From NCBI GenBank assembly GCA_964016885.1, contig OZ024741.1, forward strand, positions 25,420,001 to 25,484,000: a stretch of DNA of 64,000 nt. Reading direction: 5' to 3'. Position 1 is the stretch's first letter, and each line of letters starts with the position of its first letter. A program made the translations under genes and the position numbers. Positions 3,001 through 37,143 of the stretch are shown piece after piece. Below the pieces are notes generated by a model. The model made no database searches. It saw only the letters and a list, made by a program, of their open reading frames with translations, and was not told the DNA's origin. The DNA is from Eledone cirrhosa (taxonomy: Eukaryota).

Positions 3001-6000
3001 TATTGTGAGAAACTCAAATGTCTTCTGTCTCAATGGTCAACTAAAGACACTATTGTGAGAAACTCAAATGTCAACTCTGTCTCAATGGTCAACTAAAGAC
3101 ACTATTGTGAGAAACTCAAATGTCTTCTGTCTCAATGGTCAACTAAAGACACTATTGTGAGAAACTCAAATGTCAACTGTCTCAATGGTTAACTAAAGAC
3201 ACTATTGTGAGAAACTCAAATGTCTTCTGTCTCAATGGTCAACTAAAGACACTATTGTGAGAAACTCAAATGTCAACTGTCTCAATGGTCAACTAAAGAC
3301 ATTATTGTGAGAAACTCAAATGTCTTCTGTCTCAATGGTCAACTAAAGACACTATTGTGAGAAACTCAAATGTCTACTCTGTCTCAATGGTCAACTAAAG
3401 ACACTATTGTGAGAAACTCAAATGTCAACTGTCTCAATGGTCAACTAAAGACACTATTGTGAGAAACTCAAATGTCTTCTGTCTCAATGGTCAACTAAAG
3501 ACACTATTGTGAGAAACTCAAATGTCAACTCTGTCTCAATGGTCAACTAAAGACACTATTGTGAGAAACTCAAATGTCTTCTGTCTCAATGGTCAACTAA
3601 AGACACTATTGTGAGAAACTCAAATGTCTTCTGTCTCAATGGTCAACTAAAGACACTATTGTGAGAAACTCAAATGTCTTCTCTGTCTCAATGGTCAACT
3701 AAAGACACTATTGTGAGAAACTCAAATGTCATCTGTCTCAATGGTCAACTAAAGACACTATTGTGAGAAACTCAAATGTCTTCTGTCTCAATGGTCAACT
3801 AAAGACACTATTGTGAGAAACTCAAATGTCTACTCTGTCTCAATGGTCAACTCAAGACACTGTTGTGAGAAACTCAAATGTCTTCTCTGTCTCAATGGTC
3901 AACTAAAGACACTATTGTGAGAAACACAAATGTCTTCTCTGTCTCAATGGTCAACTAAAGACACTATTGTGAGAAACTCAAATATCTTCTCTGTCTCAAT
4001 GGTCAACTAAAGACACTATTGTGAGAAACTCAAATGTCAACTGTCTCAATGGTCAACTAAAGACACTATTGTGAGAAACTCAAATGTCTTCTGTCTCAAT
4101 GGTCAACTAAAGACACTATTGTGAGAAACTCAAATGTCTGCTCTGTCTCAATGGTCAACTCAAGACACTGTTGTGAGAAACTCAAATGTCTTCTCCGTCT
4201 CAATGGTCAACTAAAGACACTATTGTGAGAAACTCAAATGTTTTCTCTGTCTCAATGATCAACTAAAGACACTATTGTGAGAAACTTAATGGTCAACTGC
4301 CTCAATGGTCAACTAAAGACACTATTGTGAGAAACTCAAATGTCTTCTCTGTCTCAATGGTCAACTAAACACACTATTGTGAGAAACTCAAATGTCTTCT
4401 GTCTCAATGGTCAACTAAAGACACTATTGTGAGAAACTCAAATGTCTTCTCTGTCTCAATGGTCAACTAAAGACACTATTGTGAGAAACTCAAATGTCAA
4501 CTGTCTCAATGGTCAACTAAAGACACTATTGTGAGAAACTCAAATGTCTTCTGTCTCAATGGTCAACTAAAGACACTATTGTGAGAAACTCAAATGTCTA
4601 CTCTGTCTCAATGGACAACTCAAGACACTGTTGTGAGAAACTCAAATGTCTTATCTGTCTCAATGGTCAACTAAAGACACTATTGTGAGAAACTCAAATG
4701 TCTTCTGTCTCAATGGTCAACTAAAGACACTATTGTGAGAAACTCAAATGTCTTCTGTCTCAATGGTCAACTAAAGACACTATTGTGAGAAACTCAAATG
4801 TCTTCTCTGTCTCAATGGTCAACTAAAGACACTATTGTGAGAAACTCAAATGTCAACTGTCTCAATGGTTAACTAAAGACACTATTGTGAGAAACTCAAA
4901 TGTCTTCTGTCTCAATGGTCAACTAAAGACACTATTGTGAGAAACTCAAATGTCTGCTCTGTCTCAATGGTCAACTCAAGACACTGTTGTGAGAAACTCA
5001 AATGTCTTCTCTGTCTCAATGGTCAACTAAAGACACTATTGTGAGAAACTCAAATGTCTTCTCTGTCTCAATGGTCAACTAAAGACACTATTGTGAGAAA
5101 CTCAAATGTCTTCTCTGTCTCAATGGTCAACTAAAGACACTTGTGAGAAACTCAAATGTCTTCTGTCTCAATGGTCAACTAAAGACACTATTGTGAGAAA
5201 CTCAAATGTCTTCTGTCTCAATGGTCAACTAAAGACACTATTGTGAGAAACTCAAATGTCTTCTGTCTCAATGGTCAACTAAAGACACTATTGTGAGAAA
5301 CTCAAATGTCTGCTCTGTCTCAATGGTCAACTAAAGACACTGTTGTGAGAAACTCAAATGTCTTCTGTCTCAATGGTCAACTAAAGACACTATTGTGAGA
5401 AACTCAAATGTCTTCTGTCTCAATGGTCAACTAAAGACACTGTTGTGAGAAACTCAAATGTCTGCTCTGTCTCAATGGTCAACTAAAGACACTGTTGTGA
5501 GAAACTCAAATGTCTTCTGTCTCAATGGTCAACTAAAGACACTATTGTGAGAAACTCAAATGTCTTCTGTCTCAATGGTCAACTAAAGACACTATTGTGA
5601 GAAACTCAAATGTCAACTGTCTCAATGGTCAACTAAAGACACTATTGTGAGAAACTCAAATGTCTTCTGTCTCAATGGTCAACTAAAGACACTATTGTGA
5701 GAAACTCAAATGTCAACTGTCTCAATGGTCAACTAAAGACACTATTGTGAGAAACTCAAATGTCTTCTGTCTCAATGGTCAACTAAAGACACTATTGTGA
5801 GAAACTCAAATGTCTTCTCTGTCTCAATGGTCAACTAAAGACACTATTGTGAGAAACTCAAATGTCTTCTCTGTCTCAATGGTCAACTAAAGACACTATT
5901 GTGAGAAACTCAAATGTCTTCTCTGTCTCAATGGTCAACTAAAGACACTATTGTGAGAAACTCAAATGTCAACTGTCTCAATGGTCAACTAAAGACACTA

Positions 6001-9000
6001 TTGTGAGAAACTCAAATGTCTTCTGTCTCAATGGTCAACTAAAGACACTATTGTGAGAAACTCAAATGCCTGCTCTGTCTCAATGGTCAACTCAAGACAC
6101 TGTTGTGAGAAACTCAAATGTCTTCTCTGTCTCAATGGTCAACTAAAGACACTATTGTGAGAAACTCAAATGTCTTCTGTCTCAATGGTCAACTAAAGAC
6201 ACTATTGTGAGAAACTTAATGGTCAACTGCCTCAATGGTCAACTAAAGACACTTTTGTGAGAAACTCAAATGTCTTCTGTCTCAATGGTCAACTAAAGAC
6301 ACTATTGTGAGAAACTCAAATGTCTTCTGTCTCAATGGTCAACTAAAGACACTATTGTGAGAAACTCAAATGTCTTCTCTGTCTCAATGGTCAACTAAAG
6401 ACACTATTGTGAGAAACTCAAATGTCAACTGTCTCAATGGTCAACTAAAGACACTATTGTGAGAAACTCAAATGTCTTGTCTCAATGGTCAACTAAAGAC
6501 ACTATTGTGAGAAACTCAAATGTCTGCTCTGTCTCAATGGTCAACTCAAGACACTGTTGTGAGAAACTCAAATGTCTTCTGTCTCAATGGTCAACTCAAG
6601 ACACTATTGTGAGAAACTCAATGGTCTTCTCAGTCTCAATGGTCAACTCAAGACACTATTGTGAGAAACTCAAATGTCTTCTCAGTCTCAATGGTCAACT
6701 CAAGACACTATTGTGAGAAACTCAAATGTCTTCTCAGTCTCAATGGTCAACTAAAGACACTATTGTGAGAAACTCAAACGTCTTCTCAGTCTCAATGGTC
6801 AACTAAAGACACTGTTGTGAGAAACTCAATGGTCTTCTCAGTCTCAATGGTCAACTAAAGACACTATTGTGAGAAACTCAAATGTCTTCTCAGTCTCAAT
6901 GGTCAACTAAAAACACTGTTGTGAGAAACTCAATGGTCTTCTCTGTCTCAATGGTCAACTAAAGACACTATTGTGAGAAACTCAAATGTCTACTCTGTCT
7001 CAATGGACAACTCAAGACACTGTTGTGAGAAACTCAAATGTCTTCTCTGTCTCAATGGTCAACTAAAGACACTATTGTGAGAAACTCAAATGTCTTCTGT
7101 CTCAATGGTCAATTAAAGACACTATTGTGAGAAACTCAAATGTCTTCTGTCTCAATGGTCAACTAAAGACACAATTGTGAGAAACTCAAATGTCTTCTCT
7201 GTCTCAATGGTCAACTAAAGACACTATTGTGAGAAACTCAAATGTCAACTGTCTCAATGGTTAACTAAAGACACTATTGTGAGAAACTCAAATGTCTTCT
7301 GTCTCAATGGTCAACTAAAGACACTATTGTGAGAAACTCAAATGTCTGCTCTGTCTCAATGGTCAACTCAAGACACTGTTGTGAGAAACTCAAATGTCTT
7401 CTCTGTCTCAATGGTCAACTAAAGACACTATTGTGAGAAACTCAAATGTCTTCTCTGTCTCAATGGTCAACTAAAGACACTATTGTGAGAAACTCAAATG
7501 TCTTCTCTGTCTCAATGGTCAACTAAAGACACTTGTGAGAAACTCAAATGTCTTCTGTCTCAATGGTCAACTAAAGACACTATTGTGAGAAACTCAAATG
7601 TCTGCTCTGTCTCAATGGTCAACGAAAGACACTATTGTGAGAAACTCAAATGTCTTCTCTGTCTCAATGGTCAACTAATGACACTATTGTGAGAAACTCA
7701 TATGTCTTCTCTGTCTCAATGGTCAACTAAAGACACTATTGTGAGAAACTCAAATGTCTTCTCTGTCTCAATGGTCAACTAAAGACACTATTGTGAGAAA
7801 CTCAAATGTCTTCTCTGTCTCAATGGTCAACTAAAGACACTTGTGAGAAACTCAAATGTCTTCTGTCTCAATGGTCAACTAAAGACACTATTGTGAGAAA
7901 CTCAAATGTCTTCTGTCTCAATGGTCAACTAAAGACACTATTGTGAGAAACTCAAATGTCTTCTGTCTCAATGGTCAACTAAAGACACTATTGTGAGAAA
8001 CTCAAATGTCTGCTCTGTCTCAATGGTCAACTAAAGACACTGTTGTGAGAAACTCAAATGTCTTCTGTCTCAATGGTCAACTAAAGACACTATTGTGAGA
8101 AACTCAAATGTCTTCTGTCTCAATGGTCAACTAAAGACACTGTTGTGAGAAACTCAAATGTCTGCTCTGTCTCAATGGTCAACTAAAGACACTGTTGTGA
8201 GAAACTCAAATGTCTTCTGTCTCAATGGTCAACTAAAGACACTATTGTGAGAAACTCAAATGTCTTCTGTCTCAATGGTCAACTAAAGACACTATTGTGA
8301 GAAACTCAAATGTCAACTGTCTCAATGGTCAACTAAAGACACTATTGTGAGAAACTCAAATGTCTTCTGTCTCAATGGTCAACTAAAGACACTATTGTGA
8401 GAAACTCAAATGTCAACTGTCTCAATGGTCAACTAAAGACACTATTGTGAGAAACTCAAATGTCTTCTGTCTCAATGGTCAACTAAAGACACTATTGTGA
8501 GAAACTCAAATGTCTTCTCTGTCTCAATGGTCAACTAAAGACACTATTGTGAGAAACTCAAATGTCTTCTCTGTCTCAATGGTCAACTAAAGACACTATT
8601 GTGAGAAACTCAAATGTCTTCTCTGTCTCAATGGTCAACTAAAGACACTATTGTGAGAAACTCAAATGTCAACTGTCTCAATGGTCAACTAAAGACACTA
8701 TTGTGAGAAACTCAAATGTCTTGTCTCAATGGTCAACTAAAGACACTATTGTGAGAAACTCAAATGTCTGCTCTGTCTCAATGGTCAACTCAAGACACTG
8801 TTGTGAGAAACTCAAATGTCTTCTGTCTCAATGGTCAACTCAAGACACTATTGTGAGAAACTCAATGGTCTTCTCAGTCTCAATGGTCAACTCAAGACAC
8901 TATTGTGAGAAACTCAAATGTCTTCTCAGTCTCAATGGTCAACTCAAGACACTATTGTGAGAAACTCAAATGTCTTCTCAGTCTCAATGGTCAACTAAAG

Positions 9001-12000
9001 ACACTATTGTGAGAAACTCAAACGTCTTCTCAGTCTCAATGGTCAACTAAAGACACTGTTGTGAGAAACTCAATGGTCTTCTCAGTCTCAATGGTCAACT
9101 AAAGACACTATTGTGAGAAACTCAAATGTCTTCTCAGTCTCAATGGTCAACTAAAAACACTGTTGTGAGAAACTCAATGGTCTTTTCTGTCTCAATGGTC
9201 AACTAAAGACACTATTGTGAGAAACTCAAATGTCTACTCTGTCTCAATGGACAACTCAAGACACTGTTGTGAGAAACTCAAATGTCTTCTCTGTCTCAAT
9301 GGTCAACTAAAGACACTATTGTGAGAAACTCAAATGTCTTCTGTCTCAATGGTCAATTAAAGACACTATTGTGAGAAACTCAAATGTCTTCTGTCTCAAT
9401 GGTCAACTAAAGACACTATTGTGAGAAACTCAAATGTCTTCTCTGTCTCAATGGTCAACTAAAGACACTATTGTGAGAAACTCAAATGTCAACTGTCTCA
9501 ATGGTTAACTAAAGACACTATTGTGAGAAACTCAAATGTCTTCTGTCTCAATGGTCAACTAAAGACACTATTGTGAGAAACTCAAATGTCTGCTCTGTCT
9601 CAATGGTCAACTCAAGACACTGTTGTGAGAAACTCAAATGTCTTCTCTGTCTCAATGGTCAACTAAAGACACTATTGTGAGAAACTCAAATGTCTTCTCT
9701 GTCTCAATGGTCAACTAAAGACACTATTGTGAGAAACTCAAATGTCTTCTCTGTCTCAATGGTCAACTAAAGACACTTGTGAGAAACTCAAATGTCTTCT
9801 GTCTCAATGGTCAACTAAAGACACTATTGTGAGAAACTCAAATGTCTTCTGTCTCAATGGTAAACTAAAGACACTATTGTGAGAAACTCAAATGTCTTCT
9901 GTCTCAATGGTCAACTAAAGACACTATTGTGAGAAACTCAAATGTCTGCTCTGTCTCAATGGTCAACTAAAGACACTGTTGTGAGAAACTCAAATGTCTT
10001 CTGTCTCAATGGTCAACTAAAGACACTATTGTGAGAAACTCAAATGTCTTCTGTCTCAATGGTCAACTAAAGACACTGTTGTGAGAAACTCAAATGTCTG
10101 CTCTGTCTCAATGGTCAACTAAAGACACTGTTGTGAGAAACTCAAATGTCTTCTGTCTCAATGGTCAACTAAAGACACTATTGTGAGAAACTCAAATGTC
10201 TTCTGTCTCAATGGTCAACTAAAGACACTATTGTGAGAAACTCAAATGTCAACTGTCTCAATGGTCAACTAAAGACACTATTGTGAGAAACTCAAATGTC
10301 TTCTGTCTCAATGGTCAACTAAAGACACTATTGTGAGAAACTCAAATGTCAACTGTCTCAATGGTCAACTAAAGACACTATTGTGAGAAACTCAAATGTC
10401 TTCTGTCTCAATGGTCAACTAAAGACACTATTGTGAGAAACTCAAATGTCTTCTCTGTCTCAATGGTCAACTAAAGACACTATTGTGAGAAACTCAAATG
10501 TCTTCTCTGTCTCAATGGTCAACTAAAGACACTATTGTGAGAAACTCAAATGTCTTCTGTCTCAATGGTCAACTAAAGACACTATTGTGAGAAACTCAAA
10601 TGTCAACTGTCTCAATGGTCAACTAAAGACACTATTGTGAGAAACTCAAATGTCTTCTGTCTCAATGGTCAACTAAAGACACTATTGTGAGAAACTCAAA
10701 TGCCTGCTCTGTCTCAATGGTCAACTCAAGACACTGTTGTGAGAAACTCAAATGTCTTCTCTGTCTCAATGGTCAACTAAAGACACTATTGTGAGAAACT
10801 CAAATGTCTTCTGTCTCAATGGTCAACTAAAGACACTATTGTGAGAAACTTAATGGTCAACTGCCTCAATGGTCAACTAAAGACACTTTTGTGAGAAACT
10901 CAAATGTCTTCTGTCTCAATGGTCAACTAAAGACACTATTGTGAGAAACTCAAATGTCTTCTGTCTCAATGGTCAACTAAAGACACTATTGTGAGAAACT
11001 CAAATGTCTTCTCTGTCTCAAATGTCTTCTCTGTCTCAATGGTCAACTAAAGACACTATTGTGAGAAACTCAAATGTCAACTGTCTCAATGGTCAACTAA
11101 AGACACTATTGTGAGAAACTCAAATGTCTTGTCTCAATGGTCAACTAAAGACACTATTGTGAGAAACTCAAATGTCTGCTCTGTCTCAATGGTCAACTCA
11201 AGACACTGTTGTGAGAAACTCAAATGTCTTCTGTCTCAATGGTCAACTCAAGACACTATTGTGAGAAACTCAATGGTCTTCTCAGTCTCAATGGTCAACT
11301 CAAGACACTATTGTGAGAAACTCAAATGTCTTCTCAGTCTCAATGGTCAACTCAAGACACTATTGTGAGAAACTCAAATGTCTTCTCAGTCTCAATGGTC
11401 AACTAAAGACACTATTGTGAGAAACTCAAACGTCTTCTCAGTCTCAATGGTCAACTAAAGACACTGTTGTGAGAAACTCAATGGTCTTCTCAGTCTCAAT
11501 GGTCAACTAAAGACACTATTGTGAGAAACTCAAATGTCTTCTCAGTCTCAATGGTCAACTAAAAACACTGTTGTGAGAAACTCAATGGTCTTCTCTGTCT
11601 CAATGGTCAACTAAAGACACTATTGTGAGAAACTCAAACGTCTTCTCAGTCTCAATGGTCAACTAAAGACACTGTTGTGAGAAACTCAATGGTCTTCTCA
11701 GTCTCAATGGTCAACTAAAGACACTATTGTGAGAAACTCAAATGTCTTCAGTCTCAATGGTCAACTAAAAACACTGTTGTGAGAAACTCAATGGTCTTCT
11801 GTCTCAATGGTCAACTCAAGACACTATTGTGAGAAACTCAAATGTCTTCTCAGTCTCAATGGTCAACTCAAGACACTTGTGAGAAACTCAATGGTCAACT
11901 CTGTCTCAATGGTCAACTAAAGACACTATTGTGAGAAACTCAAATGTCTTCTCAGTCTCAATGGTCAACTAAAGACACTATTGTGAGAAACTCAAATGTC

Positions 12001-15000
12001 TTCTCAGTCTCAATGGTCAACTAAAGACACTATTGTGAGAAACTCAAATGTCTTCTCAGTCTCAATGGTCAACTAAAGACACTATTGTGAGAAACTCAGA
12101 TGTCTTCTCCGTCTCAATGGTCAACTAAAGACACTATTGTGAGAAACTCAAATGTCTTCTCTGTCTCAATGGTCAACTAAAGACAATTGTGAGAAACTCA
12201 AATGTCTGCTCTGTCTCAATGGTCAACTCAAGACACTGTTGTGAGAAACTCAAATGTCTTCTCTGTCTCAATGGTCAACTAAAGACACTATTGTGAGAAA
12301 CTCAAATGTCTTCTCAGTCTCAATGGTCAACTAAAGACACTATTGTGAGAAACTCAAATGTCTTCTCAGTCTGAATGGTCAACTCAAGAAACTGTTGTGA
12401 GAAACTCAAATGTCTTCTGTCTCAATGGTCAACTAAAGACACTATTGTGAGAAACTCAAATGTCTTCTCAGTCTCAATGGTCAACTCAAGAAACTGTTGT
12501 GAGAAACTCAATGGTCAACTCTGTCTCAATGGTCAACTCAAGACACTGTGAGAAACTCAAATGTCTTCTGTCTCAATGGTCAACTCAAGACACTGTTGTG
12601 AGAAACTCAAATGTCTGCTCTGTCTCAATGGTCAACTCAAGACACTGTTGTGAGAAACTCAATGGTCAACTCTGTCTCAATGGTCAACTCAAGACACTGT
12701 GAGAAACTCAAATGTCTTCTGTCTCAATGGTCAACTCAAGACACTGTTGTGAGAAACTCAAATGTCTTCTCAGTCTCAATGGTCAACTCAAGACACTATT
12801 GTGAGAAACTCAATGGTCTTCTCAGTCTCAATGGTCAACTCAAGACACTATTGTGAGAAACTCAAATGTCTTCTCAGTCTCAATGGTCAACTAAAGACAC
12901 TGTTGTGAGAAACTCAATGGTCTTCTCTGTCTCAATGGTCAACTAAAGACACTATTGTGAGAAACTCAAATGTCTTCTGTCTCAATGGTCAACTCAAGAC
13001 ACTATTGTGAGAAACTCAAATGTCTTCTCAGTCTCAATGGTCAACTAAAGACACTATTGTGAGAAACTCAAATGTCTTCTCAGTCTCAATGGTCAACTAA
13101 AGACACTGTTGTGAGAAACTCAATGGTCTTCTCAGTCTCAATGGTCAACTCAAGACACTTGTGAGAAACTCAATGGTCAACTCTGTCTCAATGGTCAACT
13201 AAAGACACTATTGTGAGAAACTCAAATGTCTTCTCAGTCTCAATGGTCAACTAAAGACACTATTGTGAGAAACTCAAATGTCTTCTCAGTCTCAATGGTC
13301 AACTAAAGACACTGTTGTGAGAAACTCAATGGTCTTCTCAGTCTCAATGGTCAACTAAAGACACTATTGTGAGAAACTCAAATGTCTTCTCTGTCTCAAT
13401 GGTCAACTAAAGACACTATTGTGAGAAACTCAAATGTCTTCTGTCTCAATGGTCAACTAAAGACACTATTGTGAGAAACTCAAATGTCTTCTGTCTCAAT
13501 GGTCAACTAAAGACACTATTGTGAGAAACTTAATGGTCAACTGCCTCAATGGTCAACTAAAGACACTATTGTGAGAAACTCAAATGTCAACTCTGTCTCA
13601 ATGGTCAACTAAAGACACTATTGTGAGAAACTCAAATGTCTTCTGTCTCAATGGTCAACTAAAGACACTATTGTGAGAAACTCAAATGTCTTCTGTCTCA
13701 ATGGTCAACTAAAGACACTATTGTGAGAAACTCAAATGTCAACTGTCTCAATGGTCAACTAAAGACACTATTGTGAGAAACTCAAATGTCTTCTGTCTCA
13801 ATGGTCAACTAAAGACACTATTGTGAGAAACTCAAATGTCTGCTCTGTCTCAATGGTCAACTCAAGACACTGTTGTGAGAAACTCAAATGTCTTCTGTCT
13901 CAATGGTCAACTAAAGACACTATTGTGAGAAACTCAAATGTCCTCTGTCTCAATGGTCAACTAAAGACACTATTGTGAGAAACTCAAATGTCAACTGTCT
14001 CAATGGTCAACTAAAGACACTATTGTGAGAAACTCAAATGTCAACTGTCTCAATGGTCAACTAAAGACACTATTGTGAGAAACTCAAATGTCTTCTGTCT
14101 CAATGGTCAACTAAAGACACTATTGTGAGAAACTCAAATGTCTGCTCTCTCTCAATGGTCAACTCAAGACACTGTTGTGAGAAACTCAAATGTCTTCTCT
14201 GTCTCAATGGTCAACTAAAGACACTATTGTGAGAAACTCAAATGTCTGCTCTGTCTCAATGGTCAACTAAAGACACTATCGTGAGAAACTCAAATGTCTT
14301 CTCTGTCTCAATGGTCAACTAAAGACACTATTGTGAGAAACTCAAATGTCAACTGTCTCAATGGTCAACTAAAGACACTATTGTGAGAAACTCAAATGTC
14401 TTCTGTCTCAATGGTCAACTAAAGACACTTTTGTGAGAAACTCAAATGTCTTCTCTGTCTCAATGGTCAACTAAAGACACTATTGTGAGAAACTCAAATG
14501 TCTTCTCAGTCTCAATGGTCAACTAAAGACACTATTGTGAGAAACTCAAATGTCTTCTCAGTCTGAATGGTCAACTCAAGAAACTGTTGTGAGAAACTCA
14601 AATGTCTTCTGTCTCAATGGTCAACTAAAGACACTATTGTGAGAAACTCAAATGTCTTCTCAGTCTCAATGGTCAACTCAAGAAACTGTTGTGAGAAACT
14701 CAATGGTCAACTCTGTCTCAATGGTCAACTCAAGACACTGTGAGAAACTCAAATGTCTTCTGTCTCAATGGTCAACTCAAGACACTGTTGTGAGAAACTC
14801 AAATGTCTGCTCTGTCTCAATGGTCAACTCAAGACACTGTTGTGAGAAACTCAATGGTCAACTCTGTCTCAATGGTCAACTCAAGACACTGAGAAACTCA
14901 AATGTCTTCTGTCTCAATGGTCAACTCAAGACACTGTTGTGAGAAACTCAAATGTCTTCTGTCTCAATGGTCAACTCAAGACACTGTGAGAAACTCAAAT

Positions 15001-16264
15001 GTCTTCTGTCTCAATGGTCAACTAAAGACACTATTGTGAGAAACTCAAATGTCTTCTCAGTCTCAATGGTCAACTAAAGACACTTGTGAGAAACTCAAAT
15101 GTCTTCTCAGTCTCAATGGTCAACTCAAGACACTATTGTGAGAAACTCAATGGTCTTCTCAGTCTCAATGGTCAACTCAAGACACTATTGTGAGAAACTC
15201 AAATGTCTTCTCAGTCTCAATGGTCAACTAAAGACACTGTTGTGAGAAACTCAATGGTCTTCTCTGTCTCAATGGTCAACTCAAGACACTATTGTGAGAA
15301 ACTCAAATGTCTTCTGTCTCAATGCTCAACTCAAGACACTATTGTGAGAAACTCAATGGTCTTCTCAGTCTCAATGGTCAACTCAAGACACTATTGTGAG
15401 AAACTCAAATGTCTTCTCAGTCTCAATGGTCAACTAAAGACACTATTGTGAGAAACTCAAATGTCTTCTCAGTCTCAATGGTCAACTAAAGACACTGTTG
15501 TGAGAAACTCAATGGTCTTCTCAGTCTCAATGGTCAACTAAAGACACTATTGTGAGAAACTCAAATGTCTTCTCAGTCTCAATGGTCAACTAAAGACACT
15601 GTTGTGAGAAACACAATGGTCTTCTCTGTCTCAATGGTCAACTCAAGACACTATTGTGAGAAACTCAAATGTCTTCTCAGTCTCAATGGTCAACTCAAGA
15701 CACTTGTGAGAAACTCAATGGTCAACTCTGTCTCAATGGTCAACTAAAGACACTATTGTGAGAAACTCAAATGTTTTCTCAGTCTCAATGGTCAACTAAA
15801 GACACTATTGTGAGAAACTCAAATGTCTTCTCAGTCTCAATGATCAACTAAAGACACTATTGTGAGAAACTCAAATGTCTTCTCAGTCTCAATGGTCAAC
15901 TAAAGACACTGTTGTGAGAAACTCAATGGTCTTCTCAGTCTCAATGGTCAACTAAAGACACTATTGTGAGAAACTCAAATGTCTTCTCTGTCTCAAAGGT
16001 CAACTAAAGACACTATTGTGAGAAACTCAAATGTCTTCTCTGTCTCAATGGTCAACTAAAGACACTATTGTGAGAAACTCAAATGTCTTCTGTCTCAATG
16101 GTCAACTAAAGACACTATTGTGAGAAACTCAAATGTCTTCTCTGTCTCAATGGTCAACTCAAGACACTGTTGTGAGAAACTCAAATGTCTTCTCAGTCTC
16201 AATGGTCAACTCAAGACACTATTGTGAGAAACTCAATGGTCAACTCAAGACATTATTGTGAGAA
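1..16264. repeat. Satellite array 1, 50/52-bp monomer (TTGTGAGAAACTCAAATGTCTTCT[CT]GTCTCAATGGTCAACTAAAGACACTA), roughly 320 copies, runs off the left edge
   Basis: Head-to-tail repeats read directly. Length variants differ by a CT dinucleotide. Recurrent variants (TCAACT, TCTGCT, CTCAAG, CAGTCT) occur in repeated orders. The array degrades at about 16240-16264. Confidence 0.98.
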
Positions 16265-16334
16265 TCTTCAATCAGTGTTTCTTCAATCAGTCACAATGGT
16301 TAATAAGCTGAAAAAATCCAAGTAAAAAACTTAC

Positions 16335-16411
16335 CGAGCTTTTTTAGCAACTGGAGAGTTTGTTTTCACTTTCATCCCTTTCATAACAGGCATGGCACAT
16401 GATGCAACAGG
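16335..16411 (-). CDS. NDUFS1: Internal coding exon (77 bp) of NADH:ubiquinone oxidoreductase 75-kDa subunit; PVASCAMPVMKGMKVKTNSPVAKKA(R)
   Basis: Manual translation of the minus strand matches the NDUFS1/NuoG motif A[A/S]CAMPVMKG...TNS...KKAR. Acceptor cttgctctgtctaatctcttgtAG has a CTAAT branch-like motif; donor is CG|GTAAGT. Starts in phase 0, ends in phase 2. Confidence 0.95.
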
Positions 16412-16499
16412 CTACAAGAGATTAGACAGAGCAAGATTGTATTACAGACAACTTTTGATACTATGGAGTAGTGGTGAAAGAAAGAGAAGGATTACTTAG

Positions 16500-16545
16500 T
16501 CATCATCATCAGTTTCGTATCCACTTTTCCATGCTAGCATGGGCT
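16500..16545 (-). mobile_element. Very short 3'-terminal remnant of an RTE LINE (or of an RTE-tailed SINE)
   Basis: (CAT)n followed by ...tccacttttccatgctagcatggg, similar to the 3' end of the intact element at 37125-37190. Confidence 0.7.
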
Positions 16546-16569
16546 ATCTAAATTCTAAAGTATGTCTCA

Positions 16570-16800
16570 AGCCTGGAGGCTTATCAGGCCAGTGCTTATC
16601 CCACTTTCAGTGGCATGAAGCAACTGAGAGTACATGACTCCCACTTGAACAAGAAGCTAGTCCTTTGTAGAGTTAAACCCCCAGTTATTGCTGGTACTCA
16701 TTTTCAGTTGAGTATATTGAGGTAACTTGAAATGAAATTATTTTCTCAAAAAAAAAACAACACATAACCCAGTTCAGGAATCAAACCCATAACATTATGG
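16570..16800 (-). mobile_element. Degenerate tRNA-derived SINE
   Basis: Minus-strand B-box-like GGTTTGATTCC at 16787-16777. The body (gctggtactcattttcag..., gcttatccc...gaagcaactgagagtacatgactcc) resembles invertebrate SINEs with a conserved central domain. Family assignment is from memory and not verified. Confidence 0.6.
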
Positions 16801-17015
16801 CACTTCTTTACACAATGATCATCATCTATATATATATATCACAACCATACCAGCACTAGCTTCTCTCAAGGACACTACATCAGAATCCTTTTATATCCAA
16901 ATTTTCTCTCAGCTCATCCACACATTATTGTTCAAACACAACAAAGCATGCTTGGTTTCATTTCTCTCCAGCCTTCGTAAACATGAGCAGCAATGGTCAA
17001 TAAATTCAGTTAGCA

Positions 17016-17078
17016 CATCATCATCATTGTCATTGTTTTTACGTCCGCTTTCCTTGCTAGCAAGGGTTAGACAGGTCT
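17016..17078 (-). mobile_element. Short 3'-terminal remnant of an RTE LINE
   Basis: (CAT)n...tttacgtccgctttccttgctagcaagggttagacagg aligns by eye with the intact element's tttaacgtccgtgttccacgcttgcatgggtttggacgg. Confidence 0.75.
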
Positions 17079-17302
17079 ACATAGTAGTGGCTACTGATCT
17101 CCCAGACAAGGAGTAATAAAATCTTAATGTTTCAGACATGACCTTCAACAGAATGAACCCATGTCTAAAATGTTGAAATTGCTTCACTCCTGAGGGTAAA
17201 GACATTTTCTGGGATTTGGTGAAGACTGCAACTGAGATGGCAATAGAAGACTCACCTTACCTGATTACTCCACTTCAACAAATATAGAGATATAAGACTC
17301 AC

Positions 17303-17410
17303 CTTTGCTGCTCGCTCCACTTCAACTAAACACATACGGCAGTTTCCTGCCACCGATAAACGGTCATGGTAACAAAATCTTGGAATTTCAACTCCAGCCG
17401 CAGCACATGC
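17303..17410 (-). CDS. NDUFS1: Internal coding exon (108 bp) of NADH:ubiquinone oxidoreductase 75-kDa subunit; [36 protein letters not shown]
   Basis: Contains the diagnostic [21 protein letters not shown] 2Fe-2S (N1b) motif of NDUFS1/NuoG. Acceptor ttccccttgttttaatttcAG, donor AAG|GTGAGT. Splices in frame to the 16335-16411 exon across an 891-bp intron. Confidence 0.97.
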
Positions 17411-18342: not shown

Positions 18343-20511
18343 TATAGACACATACTATGGAACACATATTAATGGGATACTATATAGGCACATACTATAG
18401 AACACATATTAATGAGATACCATATAGACACATACTATGCAACACATTAATGAGATACTATATAGACACATACTATGGAACACATATTAATGGGATACTA
18501 TATAGACACATACTATGGAACACATATTAATGGGATACTATATAACACATATTAATGGGATACTATATAGACACATATTAATGGGATACTAAAAAGACAT
18601 ATTATGGAACACATTAATGGGATACTATATAGACACATACTATGGAACACATTAATGAGATACTATATAGACACATACTATAGAACATATTAATGGGATA
18701 CTATATAGACACATACTATGGAACACATTAATTACTATATAGACATACTATGGAACACATATTAATGGGATACTATATAGACACATACTATAGAACACAT
18801 ATTAATGGGATACTATATAGACACATACTATGGAACACATTAATGGGATACTATATAGTCACATACTATAGAACACATTAATGGGATGCTATATAGACAC
18901 ATACTATGGAACACATTAATGGGATACTATATAGACATACTATGGAACACATTAATGAGATACTATATAGACACATACTATGGAACACATTAATGGGATA
19001 CTATATAGACACATATTAATGGGATACTATATAGACATACTATGGAACACATTAATGAGATACTATATAGACACATACTATAGAACACATTAATGGGATA
19101 CTATATAAACACATACTATGGAACACATTAATGGGATACTATATAGACACATACTATGGAACACATTAATGGGATACTATATAGACACATACTATGGAAC
19201 ACATTAATGGGATACTATATAGACACACTATAGAACACATATTAATAGGATACTATATAGACACATACTATAGAATACATATTAATGGGATACTATATAG
19301 ACACATACTATGGAACACATATAAATGGGACACTATATAGACACATACTATGGAACACACAATGGGATACTATATAGACACATACTATAGAACATATTAA
19401 TGGGATACTATATAGACACACACTATGGAACACATTAATGGGATACTATATAGAACACATATTAATAGGATACTATATAGACACATACTATAGAATACAT
19501 ATTAATGGGATACTATATAGACACATACTATGGAACACATAAATGGGACACTATATAGACACATACTATGGAACACACAATGGGATACTATATAGACACA
19601 TACTATAGAACATATTAATGGGATACTATATAGACACATACTATGGAACACATTAATGGGATACTATATAGACACATACTATAGAACACATATTAATAGG
19701 ATACTATATAGACACATACTATAGAATACATATTAATGGGATACTATATAGACACATACTATGGAACACATATAAATGGGACACTATATAGACACATACT
19801 ATGGAACACACAATGGGATACTATATAGACACATACTATAGAACATATTAATAGGATACTATATAGACACATACTATAGAACACATATTAATGAGATACT
19901 ATATAGACACATACTATAGAACACATATTAATGGGATACTATATAGACACATACTATAGAACACATATTAATGGGATATTATATAGACACATACTATGGA
20001 ACACATATTAATGGGATACTATATAGACATATACTATAGAACACATATTAATGGGATACTATATAGACACACTATAGAACATATATTAATTAGATACTAT
20101 ATAGACACATACTATGGAACACATATTAATGAGATATTATATAGACACACACTATAGAACACATATTAATGGGATACTATATAGACACATACTATAGAAC
20201 ATATATTAATTAGCTACTATATAGACACATACTATGGAACACATATTGAGATACTATGGAACACATTAATGGGATACTATATAGACACATACTATAGAAC
20301 ACATTAATGGGATACTATATAGACACATACTATAGAACACATATTAATGGGATACTATATAGACACATACTATAGAACATATATTAATTAGATACTATAT
20401 AGACACATACTATAGAATACATATTAATGGGATGTTATATAAACACATACTATAGAATACATATTAATGAGATACCATATAGACATACTACAGAACACAT
20501 ATTAATAAGAT
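18343..20511. repeat. Satellite/minisatellite array 2, 38/40-bp monomer (TATATAGACACATACTATGGAACAC[AT]ATTAATGGGATAC), about 55 copies
   Basis: Direct tandem repeats, more heterogeneous than arrays 1 and 3, with partial monomers. Confidence 0.95.
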
Positions 20512-20760: not shown

Positions 20761-22765
20761 AATCGGGGTTGCCAGACGAACTTAAGGATAGATTTTACGA
20801 GTCCCTAATGCACACTACTGCTCTAACAAACGACAATGACTTCCTAATAATCGCAGGAGATTTTAACGGACACATAGGTAAACACTGTGACGGCTTCAAT
20901 AGAGTCCATGGAGGCCATGGGGTTGGCCCAAGAAATGAGGAAGGATTCAGACTTCTAGAATTCTGCGACGCCAATGACATGTCGATATGTAACACAAACT
21001 ACAAAAAACCAGACAACCACCTGATCACCTATAGATCAGGGGAGCATTCTAGTCAGATAGATTTTATCCTCATCAGAGGACGTGACAGATGGACGGTCGT
21101 AAACACAAAAGCCCTCCCTAATGAGGAATGTACATCCCAACATAGCTTAGTTGTCAGCGACCTCACCGTCAGAACTAGACGAACCTGGAAACAGAGGCCA
21201 ACCTGGAGAAGAAAGATCTGGAAGCTGAAAGACCCCTCAACCAGTAACAGATTTAAAGATATTTTACTCAACGCCTACAACAGTAAAGAAGAACAGATAG
21301 AGACATTCAATGTAGAAGAGAACTGGGAGTTCCTAAAAAATAACTTACTAGAGGCGACGGATGAGGTCTGTGGCTGGAGTAAGACCACAAGCAGGAGGAG
21401 AGTGACTTGGTGGTGGAACAATAAGGTAGATGAGGCAGTTAAGGCCAAGAGACAGGCATGGAAAGAATGGAAGAACGGGGGGGGGGGGAGCAGGGTACAT
21501 TACATAGAGACCAAGAGGGAAGCTAGGCGACAAGTATACTTAGCTAGGAGGGAAGCAGAGGATAGAAAATTCAAGCATGTTTTGCAACGTGAGGACCAGA
21601 AACAGGAGGTGTTCAAGATTGCGAGGCAGTGTGTCAGAGATAGTTGTGATGTCATTGGAGAGAAGTGTATCCGGAATGATAAAGGTGAGCTTGCCCTCAC
21701 AAATGCTGAGAAGAAAGATGCATGGAAGAGTCATTATAATAGATTACTAAATGAGGAGAATGCATGGGAAGAAGAGACCCTACCCCACGTAGACCCTATA
21801 GAGGGACCAGCAGTACAAGTCAGCGGCAGCGTAGTAAGTAAGGCAATCAGAGATATGAAGATAGGGAAGGCAACCGGTCCATCGGGTATAGCTGCCGAGA
21901 TGCTGAAGGCATCTGGGTCTGTAGGTCACACTATAACCACACGTATCGTTAACCAGGTAATACTAGAAGGGGCCATACCAAAAGATTGGTGCAGTAGCAT
22001 CATTGTCAACTGCTATAAAGGCAAAGGTGATGCACTAAATAGAGGAAACTATAGAGGTATAAAGCTGATGGACCAGGTCATGAAAGTAACAGAAAGAGTC
22101 ATAGCACAGTTGATTAGGGACCGGGTGAAACTAGACGAGATGCAATTTGGGTTTGTACCAGGGAAGAGGCACCACTGATGCCCTCTTCCTTGTCAGGCAG
22201 TTACAGGAAAAGTACCTAGCTAAAAGTAAGCCACTCTACCTGGCATTTGTCGATCTTGAGAAAGCCTTTGACAGAGTTCCACGTGCTGTAATATGGTGGG
22301 CCCTTAGAAGACTAGGAGTAGATGAATGGCTTGTGAAAGCGGTACAAGCCATGTATAGGGGAGCAGTCAGCAAAGTTAGGATTAGCAATGAGTATAGCGA
22401 GGAATTTAGCGTACAGGTTGGGGTCCACCAGGGCTCTGTTCTTAGCCCCCTACTGTTCATCATAGTCCTGCAGGCAATAACGGAGGAGTTTAAGACCGGA
22501 TGCCCATGGGAACTCCTGTATGCTGATGACCTCGCACTTATAGCTGAATCTATGGTAGAACTAGAGAAGAAATTCCAAACTTGGAAGCAGGGACTAGAAA
22601 GAAAGGGTCTCAAAGTCAACATGACAAAGACTAAGGTCCTTGCAAGTAGACAAGAAAACAGAACCCAGATCCCCTCAGGGAAATGGCCTTGCTCAGTATG
22701 TAGGACAGGTGTAGGTAGGAACTCCATTCTCTGCTCCAAATGCAAACAATGGGTACACAAAATGA
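20761..22765 (+). pseudogene. RTE-clade LINE fragment: C-terminal part of APE endonuclease plus most of RT; truncated at both ends, with one frameshift near 22163
   Basis: ORFs 20769-22178 and 22147-22773 carry AGDFNGH, SQIDF, FVDLEKAFDRV, GVHQGSVLSPLLF and YADD. It is colinear with the intact ORF at 37516-40878. One extra base in cca ggg aag agg cac breaks FVPGxGTTDA. It ends in the middle of the zinc finger (WVHK) at the satellite junction and has no tail. Confidence 0.93.
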
Positions 22766-22769
22766 CACT

Positions 22770-25700
22770 CTAATAAAACACACTTTCTATGTTGTTTAAC
22801 CCTTTCATTACCATATTTCTAATAGAAGACACTGTCTATGTTGTTTAACCCTTTCATTACCATATCTCTAATAAAAGACACTGTCTATGTTGTTTAACCC
22901 TTTCATTACCATATTTCTAATAAAAGATCCTGTCTATGTTGTTTAACCCTTTCATTACCATATTTCTAATAAAAGACAGTATGTTGTTTAACCCTTTCAT
23001 TATCATATTTCTAATAAAAGACACTGTCTATGTTGTTTAACCCTTTCATTACCATATTTCTAATAAAAGACACTGTCTATGTTGTTTAACCCTTTCATTA
23101 CCATATTTCTAATAAAAGATCCTGTCTATGTTGTTTAACCCTTTCATTACCATATTTCTAATAAAAGACACTGTCTATGTTGTTTAACCCTTTTATTACC
23201 ATATTTCTAATAAAAGACAGTCTATGTTGTTTAACCCTTTCATTATCATATTTCTAATAAAAGACACTGTCTATGTTGTTTAACTCTTTCATTACCATAT
23301 TTCTAATAAAAGACACCGTCTATGTTGTTTAACCCTTTCATTATCATATTTCTAATAAAAGACACTGTCTATGTTGTTTAACCCTTTCATTACCATATTC
23401 CTAATAAAAGACACTGTCTATGTTGTTTAACCCTTTCATTACCATATTTCTAATAAAAGACACTGTCTATGTTGTTTAACCCTTTCATTACCATATTTCT
23501 AATAAAAGACACTGTCTATGATGTTTAACCATTTCATTATCATATTTCTAATAAAAGACACTGTCTATGTTGTTTAACCCTTTCATTACCATATTTCTAA
23601 TAAAAGACACTGTCTATGTTGTTTAACCCTTTCATTATCATATTTCTAATAGAAGACACTGTCTATGTTGTTTAACCCTTTCATTATCATATTTCTAATA
23701 GAAGACACTATGTTGTTTAACCCTTTCATTACCATATTTCTAATAAAAGACACTGTCTATGTTGTTTAACACTTTCATTACCATATTTCTAATAAAAGAC
23801 ACCGTCTATGTTGTTTAACCCTTTCATTATCATATTTCTAATAAAAGACACTGTCTATGTTGTTTAACCCTTTCATTACCATATTCCTAATAAAAGACAC
23901 TGTCTATGTTGTTTAACCCTTTCATTACCATATTTCTAATAAAAGACACTGTCTATGTTGTTTAACCCTTTCATTACCATATTTCTAATAAAAGACACTG
24001 TCTATGATGTTTAACCATTTCATTATCATATTTCTAATAAAAGACACTGTCTATGTTGTTTAACCCTTTCATTACCATATTTCTAATAAAAGACACTGTC
24101 TATGTTGTTTAACCCTTTCATTATCATATTTCTAATAGAAGACACTGTCTATGTTGTTTAACCCTTTCATTATCATATTTCTAATAGAAGACACTATGTT
24201 GTTTAACCCTTTCATTACCATATTTCTAATAAAAGACACTGTCTATGTTGTTTAACACTTTCATTACCATATTTCTAATAAAAGACACTGTCTATGTTGT
24301 TTAACCCTTTCATTACCATATTTCTAATAAAAGACACTGTCTATGATGTTTAACCATTTCATTATCATATTTCTAATAAAAGACACTGTCTATGTTGTTT
24401 AACCCTTTCATTACCATATTTCTAATAAAAGACACTGTCTATGTTGTTTAACCCTTTCATTACCAAATTTCTAATAAAAGACACTGTCTATGTTGTTTAA
24501 CCCTTTCATTACCATATTTCTAATAAAAGACACTGTCTATGTTGTTTAACCCTTTCATTACCATGTTTCTAATAAAAGACACTGTCTATGTTGTTTAACC
24601 CTTTCATTATCATATTTCTAATAGAAGACACTGTCTATGTTGTTTAACCCTTTCATTATCATATTTCTAATAGAAGACACTATGTTGTTTAACCCTTTCA
24701 TTACCATATTTCTAATAAAAGACACTGTCTATGTTGTTTAACACTTTCATTACCATATTTCTAATAAAAGACAATGTCTATGTTGTTTAACCCTTTCATT
24801 ACCATATTTCTAATAAAAGACACTGTCTATGATGTTTAACCATTTCATTATCATATTTCTAATAAAAGACACTGTCTATGTTGTTTAACCCTTTCATTAC
24901 CATATTTCTAATAAAAGACACTGTCTATGTTGTTTAACCCTTTCATTACCAAATTTCTAATAAAAGACACTGTCTATGTTGTTTAACCCTTTCATTACCA
25001 TATTTCTAATAAAAGACACTGTCTATGTTGTTTAACCCTTTCATTACCATGTTTCTAATAAAAGACACTGTCTATGTTGTTTAACCCTTTCATTACCATA
25101 TTTCTAATAAAAGACACTGTCTATGTTGTTTAACCCTTTCATTACCATATTTCTAATAAAAGACACTGTCCATGTTGTTTAACCCTTTCATTACCATATT
25201 TCTAATAAAAGACACTGTCTATGTTGTTTAACCCTTTCATTACCATATTTCTAATAAAAGACAGTATGTTGTTTAACCCTTTCATTATCATATTTCTAAT
25301 AAAAGACACTGTCTATGTTGTTTAACCCTTTCATTACAATATTTCTAATAAAAGACGCTGTCTATGTTGTTTAACCCTTTCATTACCATATTTCTAATAA
25401 AAGACACTGTCTATGTTGTTTAACCCTTTCATTACCATATTTCTAATAAAAGACACTGTCTATGTTGTTTAACCCTTTCATTACCATATTTCTAATAAAA
25501 GACACTGTCTATGTTGTTTAACCCTTTCATTATCATATTTCTAATAAAAGACACTGTCTATGTTGTTTAACTTTTCATTACCATATTTCTAATAAAAGAC
25601 ACTGTCTATGTTGTTTAACCCTTTCATTACCATATTTCTAATAAAAGACACTGTCTATGTTGTTTAACCCTTTCATTACCATATTTCTAATAAAAGACAC

Positions 25701-28700
25701 TGTCTATGTTGTTTAACCCTTCCATTACCATATTTCTAATAAAAGACACTGTCTATGTTGTTTAACCCTTTTATTACCATATTTCTAATAAAAGACAGTC
25801 TATGTTGTTTAACCCTTTCATTATCATATTTCTAATAAAAGACACTGTCTATGTTGTTTAACTCTTTCATTACCATATTTCTAATAAAAGACACCGTCTA
25901 TGTTGTTTAACCCTTTCATTATCATATTTCTAATAAAAGACACTGTCTATGTTGTTTAACCCTTTCATTACCATATTCCTAATAAAAGACACTGTCTATG
26001 TTGTTTAACCCTTTCATTACCATATTTCTAATAAAAGACACTGTCTATGTTGTTTAACCCTTTCATTACCATATTTCTAATAAAAGACACTGTCTATGAT
26101 GTTTAACCATTTCATTATCATATTTCTAATAAAAGACACTGTCTATGTTGTTTAACCCTTTCATTACCATATTTCTAATAAAAGACACTGTCTATGTTGT
26201 TTAACCCTTTCATTATCATATTTCTAATAGAAGACACTGTCTATGTTGTTTAACCCTTTCATTATCATATTTCTAATAGAAGACACTATGTTGTTTAACC
26301 CTTTCATTACCATATTTCTAATAAAAGACACTGTCTATGTTGTTTAACACTTTCATTACCATATTTCTAATAAAAGACACCGTCTATGTTGTTTAACCCT
26401 TTCATTATCATATTTCTAATAAAAGACACTGTCTATGTTGTTTAACCCTTTCATTACCATATTCCTAATAAAAGACACTGTCTATGTTGTTTAACCCTTT
26501 CATTACCATATTTCTAATAAAAGACACTGTCTATGTTGTTTAACCCTTTCATTACCATATTTCTAATAAAAGACACTGTCTATGATGTTTAACCATTTCA
26601 TTATCATATTTCTAATAAAAGACACTGTCTATGTTGTTTAACCCTTTCATTACCATATTTCTAATAAAAGACACTGTCTATGTTGTTTAACCCTTTCATT
26701 ATCATATTTCTAATAGAAGACACTGTCTATGTTGTTTAACCCTTTCATTATCATATTTCTAATAGAAGACACTATGTTGTTTAACCCTTTCATTACCATA
26801 TTTCTAATAAAAGACACTGTCTATGTTGTTTAACACTTTCATTACCATATTTCTAATAAAAGACACTGTCTATGTTGTTTAACCCTTTCATTACCATATT
26901 TCTAATAAAAGACACTGTCTATGTTGTTTAACCCTTTCATTACCAAATTTCTAATAAAAGACACTGTCTATGTTGTTTAACCCTTTCATTACCATATTTC
27001 TAATAAAAGACACTGTCTATGTTGTTTAACCCTTTCATTACCATGTTTCTAATAAAAGACACTGTCTATGTTGTTTAACCCTTTCATTATCATATTTCTA
27101 ATAGAAGACACTGTCTATGTTGTTTAACCCTTTCATTATCATATTTCTAATAGAAGACACTATGTTGTTTAACCCTTTCATTACCATATTTCTAATAAAA
27201 GACACTGTCTATGTTGTTTAACACTTTCATTACCATATTTCTAATAAAAGACAATGTCTATGTTGTTTAACCCTTTCATTACCATATTTCTAATAAAAGA
27301 CACTGTCTATGATGTTTAACCATTTCATTATCATATTTCTAATAAAAGACACTGTCTATGTTGTTTAACCCTTTCATTACCATATTTCTAATAAAAGACA
27401 CTGTCTATGTTGTTTAACCCTTTCATTACCAAATTTCTAATAAAAGACACTGTCTATGTTGTTTAACCCTTTCATTACCATATTTCTAATAAAAGACACT
27501 GTCTATGTTGTTTAACCCTTTCATTACCATGTTTCTAATAAAAGACACTGTCTATGTTGTTTAACCCTTTCATTACCATATTTCTAATAAAAGACACTGT
27601 CTATGTTGTTTAACCCTTTCATTACCATATTTCTAATAAAAGACACTGTCCATGTTGTTTAACCCTTTCATTACCATATTTCTAATAAAAGACACTGTCT
27701 ATGTTGTTTAACCCTTTCATTACCATATTTCTAATAAAAGACACTGTCTATGTTGTTTAACCCTTTCATTATCATATTTCTAATAAAAGACACTGTCTAT
27801 GTTGTTTAACTTTTCATTACCATATTTCTAATAAAAGACACTGTCTATGTTGTTTAACCCTTTCATTACCATATTTCTAATAAAAGACACTGTCTATGTT
27901 GTTTAACCCTTTCATTACCATATTTCTAATAAAAGACACTGTCTATGTTGTTTAACCCTTCCATTACCATATTTCTAATAAAAGACACTGTCTATGTTGT
28001 TTAACCCTTTCATTACCATATTTCTAATAAAAGACAGTATGTTGTTTAACCCTTTCATTATCATATTTCTAATAAAAGACACTGTCTATGTTGTTTAACC
28101 CTTTCATTACAATATTTCTAATAAAAGACGCTGTCTATGTTGTTTAACCCTTTCATTACCATATTTCTAATAAAAGACACTGTCTATGTTGTTTAACCCT
28201 TTCATTACCATATTCCTAATAAAAGACACTGTCTATGTTGTTTAACCCTTTCATTACCATATTTCTAATAAAAGACACTGTCTATGTTGTTTAACCCTTT
28301 CATTACCATATTTCTAATAAAAGACACTGTCTATGATGTTTAACCATTTCATTATCATATTTCTAATAAAAGACACTGTCTATGTTGTTTAACCCTTTCA
28401 TTACCATATTTCTAATAAAAGACACTGTCTATGTTGTTTAACCCTTTCATTATCATATTTCTAATAGAAGACACTGTCTATGTTGTTTAACCCTTTCATT
28501 ACCATATTTCTAATAAAAGACACTGTCTATGTTGTTTAACCCTTTCATTACCATATTTCTAATAAAAGACACTGTCTATGTTGTTTAACCCTTCCATTAC
28601 CATATTTCTAATAAAAGACACTGTCTATGTTGTTTAACCCTTTTATTACCATATTTCTAATAAAAGACAGTCTATGTTGTTTAACCCTTTCATTATCATA

Positions 28701-37124: not shown

Positions 37125-37143
37125 CATCATCATCATCATCATC
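37120..37143 (-). repeat. (GAT)8 3' tail of the RTE element
   Basis: (ATC)8 on the plus strand; its first bases overlap the satellite variant CATTATCAT. Confidence 0.9.

What the first reader, a model, noticed from the sequence alone, without database searches (positions are those of the whole stretch)
16335..17410. Hidden host gene: NDUFS1 exons embedded in more than 50 kb of intronic satellite DNA
Seen: two spliceable, stop-free exons absent from the ORF track encode part of the N1b Fe-S region of complex I 75-kDa subunit. I found neither neighbouring exon (the upstream one typically ending in ...TTVLQ, the downstream one starting ...EGVMEFLL) in the unique sequence. That implies flanking introns of at least 46 kb and at least 16 kb, made almost wholly of homogeneous satellite. 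Satellite 1 starts only about 70 bp from a donor site. Inference: an essential housekeeping gene is transcribed through more than 1000 satellite monomers, reminiscent of the satellite-filled giant introns of Drosophila Y-loop genes.
Basis: partly seen in the sequence, partly recalled or inferred. Interest (0 to 1): 0.75.

Follow-up and report, generated by a model that had tools for sequence, protein, structure and literature searches.

The report
Octopod NDUFS1 with satellite-swollen introns
In an octopus relative, the intact respiratory-chain gene NDUFS1 is stretched over 268,000 bases because five introns each hold a different tandem-repeat block (up to 127,000 bases), a spliced transcript of the gene exists, and the blocks likely grew by unequal exchange in a repeat-rich stretch near a chromosome end rather than as a control device.

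Summary
Confirmed and extended. The two minus-strand exons are coding exons 3 and 4 of an intact 19-exon NDUFS1 (723 aa, 18 of 18 introns GT-AG, 88.8% identical to Octopus bimaculoides), colinear over 268 kb of gap-free assembly. The flanking introns are 135.5 and 27.1 kb; three more are 44.1, 24.6 and 11.4 kb. About 87% of intron DNA is tandem array, one unit per large intron. One public run holds a spliced 2,754-nt contig that skips introns 5-10 exactly and joins exon 11 to exon 12 across the 44-kb array; junctions of exons 2-5 are inferred. The 52- and 32-bp arrays are private to their introns; the 49-bp unit also forms an inverted 375-kb array nearby and a variant array at the far chromosome end. 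Eleven control housekeeping genes span 4-32 kb; arrays fill 12 of 25 distal against 4 of 30 interior samples. Best reading: tolerated runaway minisatellite growth in a distal domain, closer to avian 'sequence stuttering' than to Drosophila Y-loops, but larger and not GC-rich. The scan noted the same pattern in six other genes of this genome.

The parts
17303..17410 (-). NDUFS1 coding exon 3 (108 bp, phase 0/0), three of the four cysteines of the first 2Fe-2S site (assignment to cluster N1b recalled)
16335..16411 (-). NDUFS1 coding exon 4 (77 bp, phase 0/2), fourth cysteine of that site (recalled)
16412..17302 (-). intron 3, 891 bp, GT-AG, no tandem array
1..16272 (.). 52-bp minisatellite array in intron 4 (27,111 bp; array C2:25,409,535-25,436,272, about 26.7 kb, continues left of the window); private: 359 of 359 exact genome-wide matches of a 30-mer lie here
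18343..20506 (.). 38/40-bp minisatellite array (2.2 kb) in intron 2, 932 bp from the exon-3 acceptor
20784..22762 (+). LINE fragment cut off at the array edge; member of an abundant family (40 of 1,812 candidates scored, 96-98% identical)
22769..64000 (.). 49-bp satellite array in intron 2 (135,525 bp; array C2:25,442,769-25,570,155, 127.4 kb including one LINE, about 2,500 monomers, 98% identical to the commonest one; continues 86 kb right of the window)
37121..42390 (-). full-length LINE inserted in the 49-bp array, same direction as NDUFS1; one open frame of 1,133 codons (37516-40917) with endonuclease, reverse transcriptase and PHD-like domains; about three 470-bp repeats at its 5' end

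Best explanation
The exons belong to an intact, spliced NDUFS1 gene of an octopod whose five large introns are each filled by a different tandem array, likely grown by unequal exchange in a repeat-rich distal chromosome domain and likely tolerated because polymerase would read through and the arrays would be spliced out. Shown: gene structure, array sizes in the assembly, privacy of the 52- and 32-bp units, the spliced transcript, multi-kb exact duplications inside arrays, distal enrichment of arrays on this chromosome. Inferred: (1) a 22-52-bp piece of intron DNA duplicates in place and expands in blocks of several kb by unequal crossover, gene conversion or break-induced copying; (2) the 49-bp array was instead seeded from a family that also forms the inverted 375-kb array 242 kb away; (3) selection removes only expansions that touch exons or present strong splice or poly(A) signals on the transcribed strand; (4) the exons are joined co-transcriptionally by exon definition, with no gene-specific role for the arrays.
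For: 19 exons colinear on C2 minus, 723 aa, no stop, no gap against O. bimaculoides, 18 of 18 introns GT-AG; all 9 NuoG-profile matches in the genome lie in this locus (a floor); no N in C2:25,280,001-25,630,000. Run X4, record 9 (2,754 nt) skips introns 5-10 at the predicted 427, 136, 1247, 594, 637 and 1221 bp with GT-AG ends; none of these six joints is listed for run X3, whose contigs run through the introns; its loose end after exon 11 equals the first 30 of 30 nt of exon 12, across the 44.1-kb array. Private arrays: 359 of 359 and 464 of 464 exact matches local. Exact internal duplications of 9.4, 9.1, 6.0 kb (49-bp), 4.6 kb (22/47-bp), 3.0 kb (32-bp). Arrays cover at least half of 12 of 25 distal and 4 of 30 interior 5-kb samples of C2, Fisher p=0.007, almost each with its own unit. 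No array reaches an exon; nearest edge 12 bp from a donor. 0 of 8 arrays carry a per-unit AATAAA or GTRAG on the transcribed strand, 3 of 8 on the other.
Against: The length of the 127-kb array rests on the assembly alone. X4 is another sample, its intron lengths unknown and its kind not on record. The strand bias is not significant: 9 of 70 strand-units of other arrays carry such a signal, so 0 of 8 is expected about one time in three, and variant monomers still give 0.76 sense AATAAA per kb in the 49-bp array, like ordinary intron DNA at 0.71. Position is not sufficient: chaperonin genes within 6 Mb of an end of C12, C19 and C21 span only 6-10 kb. The distal boundary was set after the first 15 of 55 samples were seen, on one chromosome. 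Recombination rate, length polymorphism and relatives' introns were not measured.
Confidence: 0.78

Rival explanations
1. Y-loop-like functional intron gigantism: the arrays are kept as a timer or scaffold and need dedicated RNA-binding factors.
For: Essential gene, 87% of intron DNA in arrays; 4 of 8 arrays begin within 170 bp of a donor; 11 of 11 control housekeeping genes are compact, 4-32 kb.
Against: Units differ from intron to intron and look young (98% monomer identity); equally large arrays lie outside the coding span (about 103 kb of 21-bp unit, 375 kb of 49-bp unit) and throughout the distal domain; a housekeeping gene has no evident use for a delay (inference).
Confidence: 0.07
2. 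Assembly inflation or mis-join: real but much shorter arrays, with the 49-bp block lengthened by reads from the neighbouring inverted array.
For: Very homogeneous monomers; exact internal duplications of 9.4 and 9.1 kb; a sister array 242 kb away shares the commonest monomer.
Against: No gap in 350 kb; exons colinear on both sides; 0 reverse-strand matches inside the gene; only 304 of 547 sampled sister monomers occur in the intronic array, so the two are separately homogenised; contigs of X1 and X2 cross the exon-4/52-bp boundary with one mismatch (possibly the assembly's own sample).
Confidence: 0.1
3. NDUFS1 lies inside a centromere-like or heterochromatic satellite block (about 750 kb, with about 500 kb of the 49-bp family), like Drosophila heterochromatic genes, and the arrays are structural DNA.
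For: The 49-bp family forms arrays of 375 and 127 kb here and a variant array at C2:412 Mb.
Against: Many unrelated units form similar blocks over the first 34 Mb and last 11 Mb of C2; four of five large introns hold other units, two shown to be private.
Confidence: 0.05

Closest known systems
NDUFS1 / NuoG, 75-kDa subunit of mitochondrial complex I (TIGR01973; octopod records P0010, P0003, P0004)
   Same: 723 aa, 88.8% identical to O. bimaculoides without gaps, 86.6% to Argonauta, 84.1% to the O. sinensis record; all Fe-S cysteine motifs present in the translation.
   Different: Protein ordinary; only the gene span (268 kb) is unusual. Intron sizes of the relatives could not be read here.
Avian intron 'sequence stuttering' on dot chromosomes (Hron et al. 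2026, PMC12954441; abstract, section 7 whole, first part of Discussion read)
   Same: Each intron holds its own locally expanded motif of tens of bases, blocks never cross exons, coding sequence intact, driven by chromosomal position, intergenic DNA affected too.
   Different: Arrays here reach 127 kb (exon-stuttering spans there 112-23,555 bp); coding GC 45%, GC3 37%, not GC-rich; LINEs are present; no exon-derived copies; the largest array is not local in origin; distal arm of a 416-Mb chromosome of an invertebrate.
Drosophila Y-loop fertility genes kl-3, kl-5 (PMC6508613 main text read; PMC11207136 abstract only)
   Same: Small exons separated by satellite-filled introns that must be transcribed and spliced.
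   Different: There Y-linked, spermatocyte-specific, genes over 4 Mb, needing blanks and heph; here a housekeeping gene of 268 kb with 22-52-bp units.
Mouse pseudoautosomal genes with minisatellite-filled introns (bioRxiv 10.1101/2022.03.26.485930, passages) and zebra finch dot-chromosome euchromatin (10.1101/2025.10.14.682431, passages)
   Same: Minisatellite-dense introns in distal or small, highly recombining DNA, ascribed to unequal crossover in the mouse paper.
   Different: Mouse PAR introns are short and exons very GC-rich; here introns are very long and AT-rich.

Membership tests
NDUFS1 (complex I 75-kDa subunit) | Full-length homology to the family | tested here: met
   NuoG profile matches 9 exons; 723 aa, 88.8% to O. 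bimaculoides, no gaps
NDUFS1 (complex I 75-kDa subunit) | Intact frame and splice sites, spliced transcript | tested here: met
   No stop, 18 of 18 GT-AG; six joints and exon 11-12 junction in X4
NDUFS1 (complex I 75-kDa subunit) | The genome's only functional copy | tested here: inconclusive
   9 of 9 matches in this locus, but the search used a stricter first look
Avian-type sequence stuttering | Introns dominated by tandem motifs that do not cross exons | tested here: met
   5 large introns 88-97% tandem by TRF; 8 arrays, none touching an exon
Avian-type sequence stuttering | Strictly local origin of each motif | tested here: inconclusive
   Met for the 52- and 32-bp units, not met for the 49-bp unit, 5 of 8 arrays not tested; exact probes miss diverged relatives
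Avian-type sequence stuttering | Extensive intron length variation between individuals | not testable with these tools
   No long reads of other individuals were available
Avian-type sequence stuttering | Occasional exon-derived copies in introns | tested here: not met
   19 exons against 18 introns: best hits 12-16 bp, E at least 0.3; the feature is occasional in birds too
Avian-type sequence stuttering | GC-rich coding sequence, no interspersed repeats (associated traits) | tested here: not met
   GC 0.448, GC3 0.369; several LINEs in the introns
Drosophila Y-loop intron gigantism | Satellite-filled introns of hundreds of kb to Mb, gene span of Mb | tested here: not met
   Largest intron 135.5 kb, coding span 268 kb
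Drosophila Y-loop intron gigantism | Germline-restricted gene on a sex-limited chromosome | tested here: not met
   The gene is a core complex I subunit; chromosome type and tissue pattern themselves not tested
Drosophila Y-loop intron gigantism | Lampbrush-like loops and dedicated RNA-binding factors | not testable with these tools
   Needs FISH and genetics

The most novel reading that the evidence does not exclude
The distal tens of megabases of this octopod's giant chromosomes form an AT-rich 'stuttering' compartment, about half minisatellite, in which private and mobile arrays inflate even essential single-copy genes to hundreds of kb, and an orientation filter lets survive only arrays whose transcribed strand lacks per-unit poly(A) and splice signals; the intronic 49-bp array is inverted relative to its neighbour in just the sense that hides about 2,100 AATAAA hexamers from the polymerase.
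Probability: 0.3. Interest if true: 0.72.

Novelty: new variant of a known kind. Interest (0 to 1): 0.5.

Why it matters
Satellite-filled giant introns are best known from a few germline genes of flies. Here a gene that every respiring cell needs carries about 230 kb of homogeneous arrays and is still spliced correctly, so somatic cells would routinely transcribe such arrays. That makes testable, without germline confounders, how polymerase and the spliceosome cope with long homogeneous repeats, whether arrays are filtered by strand for cryptic signals, and how much of octopod genome size comes from minisatellite growth rather than transposons. It also warns that such genes will be fragmented in window-based or short-read annotation.

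Tried and rejected
No RNA holder was listed for the two window exons, and X4 showed no cover on exons 3-4; the tool says a filter drops records and a hole proves nothing, so this is no evidence either way. X4's share of 0.13 was not used. Summed contig depth over the 52-bp array (1,244-5,505 against 11-16 on unique DNA) and the 32-bp edge (2,856 against 7-8) is of the order expected but is no copy number. Idea that the two LINE pieces flanking the 49-bp array are one element duplicated around it: rejected; they differ at 3.6% of 1,452 columns, the right arm is closer to 4 of 18 other copies (2.5-3.5%), and they share 2 rare states, within the 0-4 seen for unrelated copies. Idea that the 49-bp unit is the end of a dispersed transposon (recalled resemblance): no dispersed copy in the loci sampled, only another array; open. 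DNA searches of the genome with satellite stretches gave a blank or were not scored. Proteasome-ATPase search scored 48 of 127 candidates and gave partial genes only; not counted among controls. Two single-exon matches were left out of the span count. Search for a host gene around the sister array: 49 of 100 open frames scanned, only a LINE found, so its strand context is unknown. Phage collection: no match, uninformative. Literature searches for this pattern in cephalopods listed no such report; subscription papers and supplements were not seen and may bear on novelty.

Full report
Observation. The window is C2:25,420,001-25,484,000 of G000, a 3.0-Gb genome. Two minus-strand exons at window 17410-17303 and 16411-16335 have AG/GT boundaries and encode residues matching the complex I 75-kDa subunit. 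The rest of the window is a 52-bp array (1-16272), a 38/40-bp array (18343-20506), LINE sequence and a 49-bp array (22769-64000). The closest named proteins are from Octopus and Argonauta, so the animal is an octopod, though none of those records is identical (84-89%).

The gene. With neighbouring stretches all 19 coding exons were found in order on the minus strand, from C2:25,578,160 to 25,309,773. Joined, they give 723 aa without stop or gap against O. bimaculoides; 18 of 18 introns are GT-AG (one search had one boundary wrong by a base, corrected). There is no N in the 350 kb read. Intron lengths: 5,075; 135,525; 891; 27,111; 427; 136; 1,247; 594; 637; 1,221; 44,101; 2,508; 11,380; 24,560; 919; 3,469; 3,170; 3,245 bp. 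Long arrays cover 235.7 kb by TRF, 230.4 kb after removing the LINE inside the largest, about 87% of 266 kb of intron. Units: 48 bp (intron 1), 49 and 38/40 bp (2), 52 bp (4), 32 bp (11), 34/40 bp (13), 22/47 bp (14), 44 bp (18). All 9 profile matches in the genome fall in this locus (a floor).

Expression. Run X4 (kind not on record, another sample of the same species label) holds a 2,754-nt contig that skips introns 5-10 at exactly the predicted lengths with GT-AG ends, while contigs of X3 run through those introns. Its loose end after exon 11 is the first 30 nt of exon 12, a junction across the 44.1-kb 32-bp array. Its record coordinates fit the model throughout; 215 letters precede exon 5, equal to exon 4, exon 3 and 30 letters of exon 2, and the implied end 702 nt after the stop falls in a TA microsatellite. 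The junctions around the window's own exons are therefore inferred from length, not displayed.

Origin of the arrays. Exact 30-mers of the 52- and 32-bp arrays occur 359 and 464 times in the genome, all inside their introns. The 49-bp unit differs: 1,352 of 1,388 forward matches are local, but 2,595 reverse matches exist, the first listed ones in an inverted array sampled from C2:24,825,749 to 25,200,904 (about 375 kb by 13 sampled stretches), and a variant array turned up at C2:412 Mb. Between sister array and gene lies about 103 kb of a 21-bp unit (sampled). The intronic 49-bp array has 2,505 monomers, 942 of the 2,157 full-length ones identical, with exact block duplications up to 9.4 kb; 304 of 547 sampled sister monomers occur in it. 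That is the pattern expected from block-wise unequal exchange with separate homogenisation (inference). No array derives from an exon. The LINE pieces at both edges are not one duplicated element.

Context. ACO2 spans 32 kb, SDHA 12.5 kb and nine multi-exon chaperonin genes 4-31 kb between first and last matched exon, so 0 of 11 controls resemble NDUFS1; three of them lie within 6 Mb of an end of smaller chromosomes and are compact. On C2, arrays cover at least half of 12 of 25 samples from the first 30 and last 30 Mb and 4 of 30 between (p=0.007; two of the four are at 32 and 34 Mb; boundary set after 15 of 55 samples were seen). Earlier unchecked notes of this scan report the same build in SRA1, LHPP, unc79, APLF, REXO5-like and SPAG17 genes of this genome; I did not re-test those genes.

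Signals. On the transcribed strand 0 of 8 arrays carry a per-unit AATAAA or GTRAG; on the other strand three do (49-bp: 17 AATAAA per kb; 52- and 44-bp: about 20 GTRAG per kb). The background is 9 of 70 strand-units, so this is suggestive only.

Mechanism. Most likely short intron or flank sequence duplicates and expands in blocks in a distal domain; arrays that spare exons and offer few cryptic signals are tolerated; polymerase would traverse about 270 kb, hours at usual elongation rates (recalled), with co-transcriptional splicing as reported for gigantic fly genes (PMC11207136, abstract). Rivals are assembly inflation of the 49-bp array (0.10), Y-loop-like function (0.07) and a centromere-like block (0.05).

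Comparison and novelty. It works like avian sequence stuttering (PMC12954441) and the minisatellite introns of mouse PAR and finch dot chromosomes (passages), but fails or leaves open several defining features and is larger and AT-rich; it is not a Y-loop gene (PMC6508613). The Octopus minor paper mentions enlarged introns (mean 5.4 kb) and 14.7% simple repeats but no such arrays in the passages seen (PMC6279123). Searches for a cephalopod report listed none; closed journals and supplements were not seen. Verdict: real, new variant of a known kind, interest 0.5.

Noticed in passing
window 37121-42390 (-): Full-length LINE with an intact 1,133-codon endonuclease-RT-PHD frame and three 470-bp 5' repeats, inserted in the 49-bp array in the same direction as NDUFS1; likely young. 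A 96%-identical copy lies in intron 17.
   Followed up: partly
G000:C2:24,825,749-25,200,904 (L062-L074, L139): About 375-kb inverted array of the same 49-bp unit, with 273/322-bp higher-order structure at one end; no host gene found.
   Followed up: partly
L119 (G000:C2:412,000,001-412,005,000): Variant 49-bp array at the opposite chromosome end, differing at two positions that remove the AATAAA hexamer in most monomers.
   Followed up: partly
G000:C2: about 25,203,768-25,307,127 (L139, L140, L075, L076, L045, L044, L001): About 103-kb 21/39-bp array beginning 2.6 kb beyond the NDUFS1 stop codon.
   Followed up: no
window 20663-20733 and L021:8764-8823: A 60-70-bp direct repeat (57 of 59 aligned bases identical) lies outside the LINE pieces on both sides of the 49-bp array; target duplication or common repeat, unresolved.
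   Followed up: partly
introns 4, 13, 14, 18: 4 of 8 arrays start within 12-163 bp of a splice donor, only one within 140 bp of an acceptor; too few to test.
   Followed up: no
L061:5700-10000: A different two-frame LINE (387 and over 1,056 codons open) just outside the sister array, next to a 200-N gap.
   Followed up: no
P0003 (database record): The O. sinensis record carries what looks like intron read-through in place of exon 11, a likely annotation error.
   Followed up: no
G000:C22:6.84-6.88 Mb and C2:77.59-77.63 Mb: Tandem pairs of AAA-ATPase genes or repeated domains about 35-40 kb apart.
   Followed up: no
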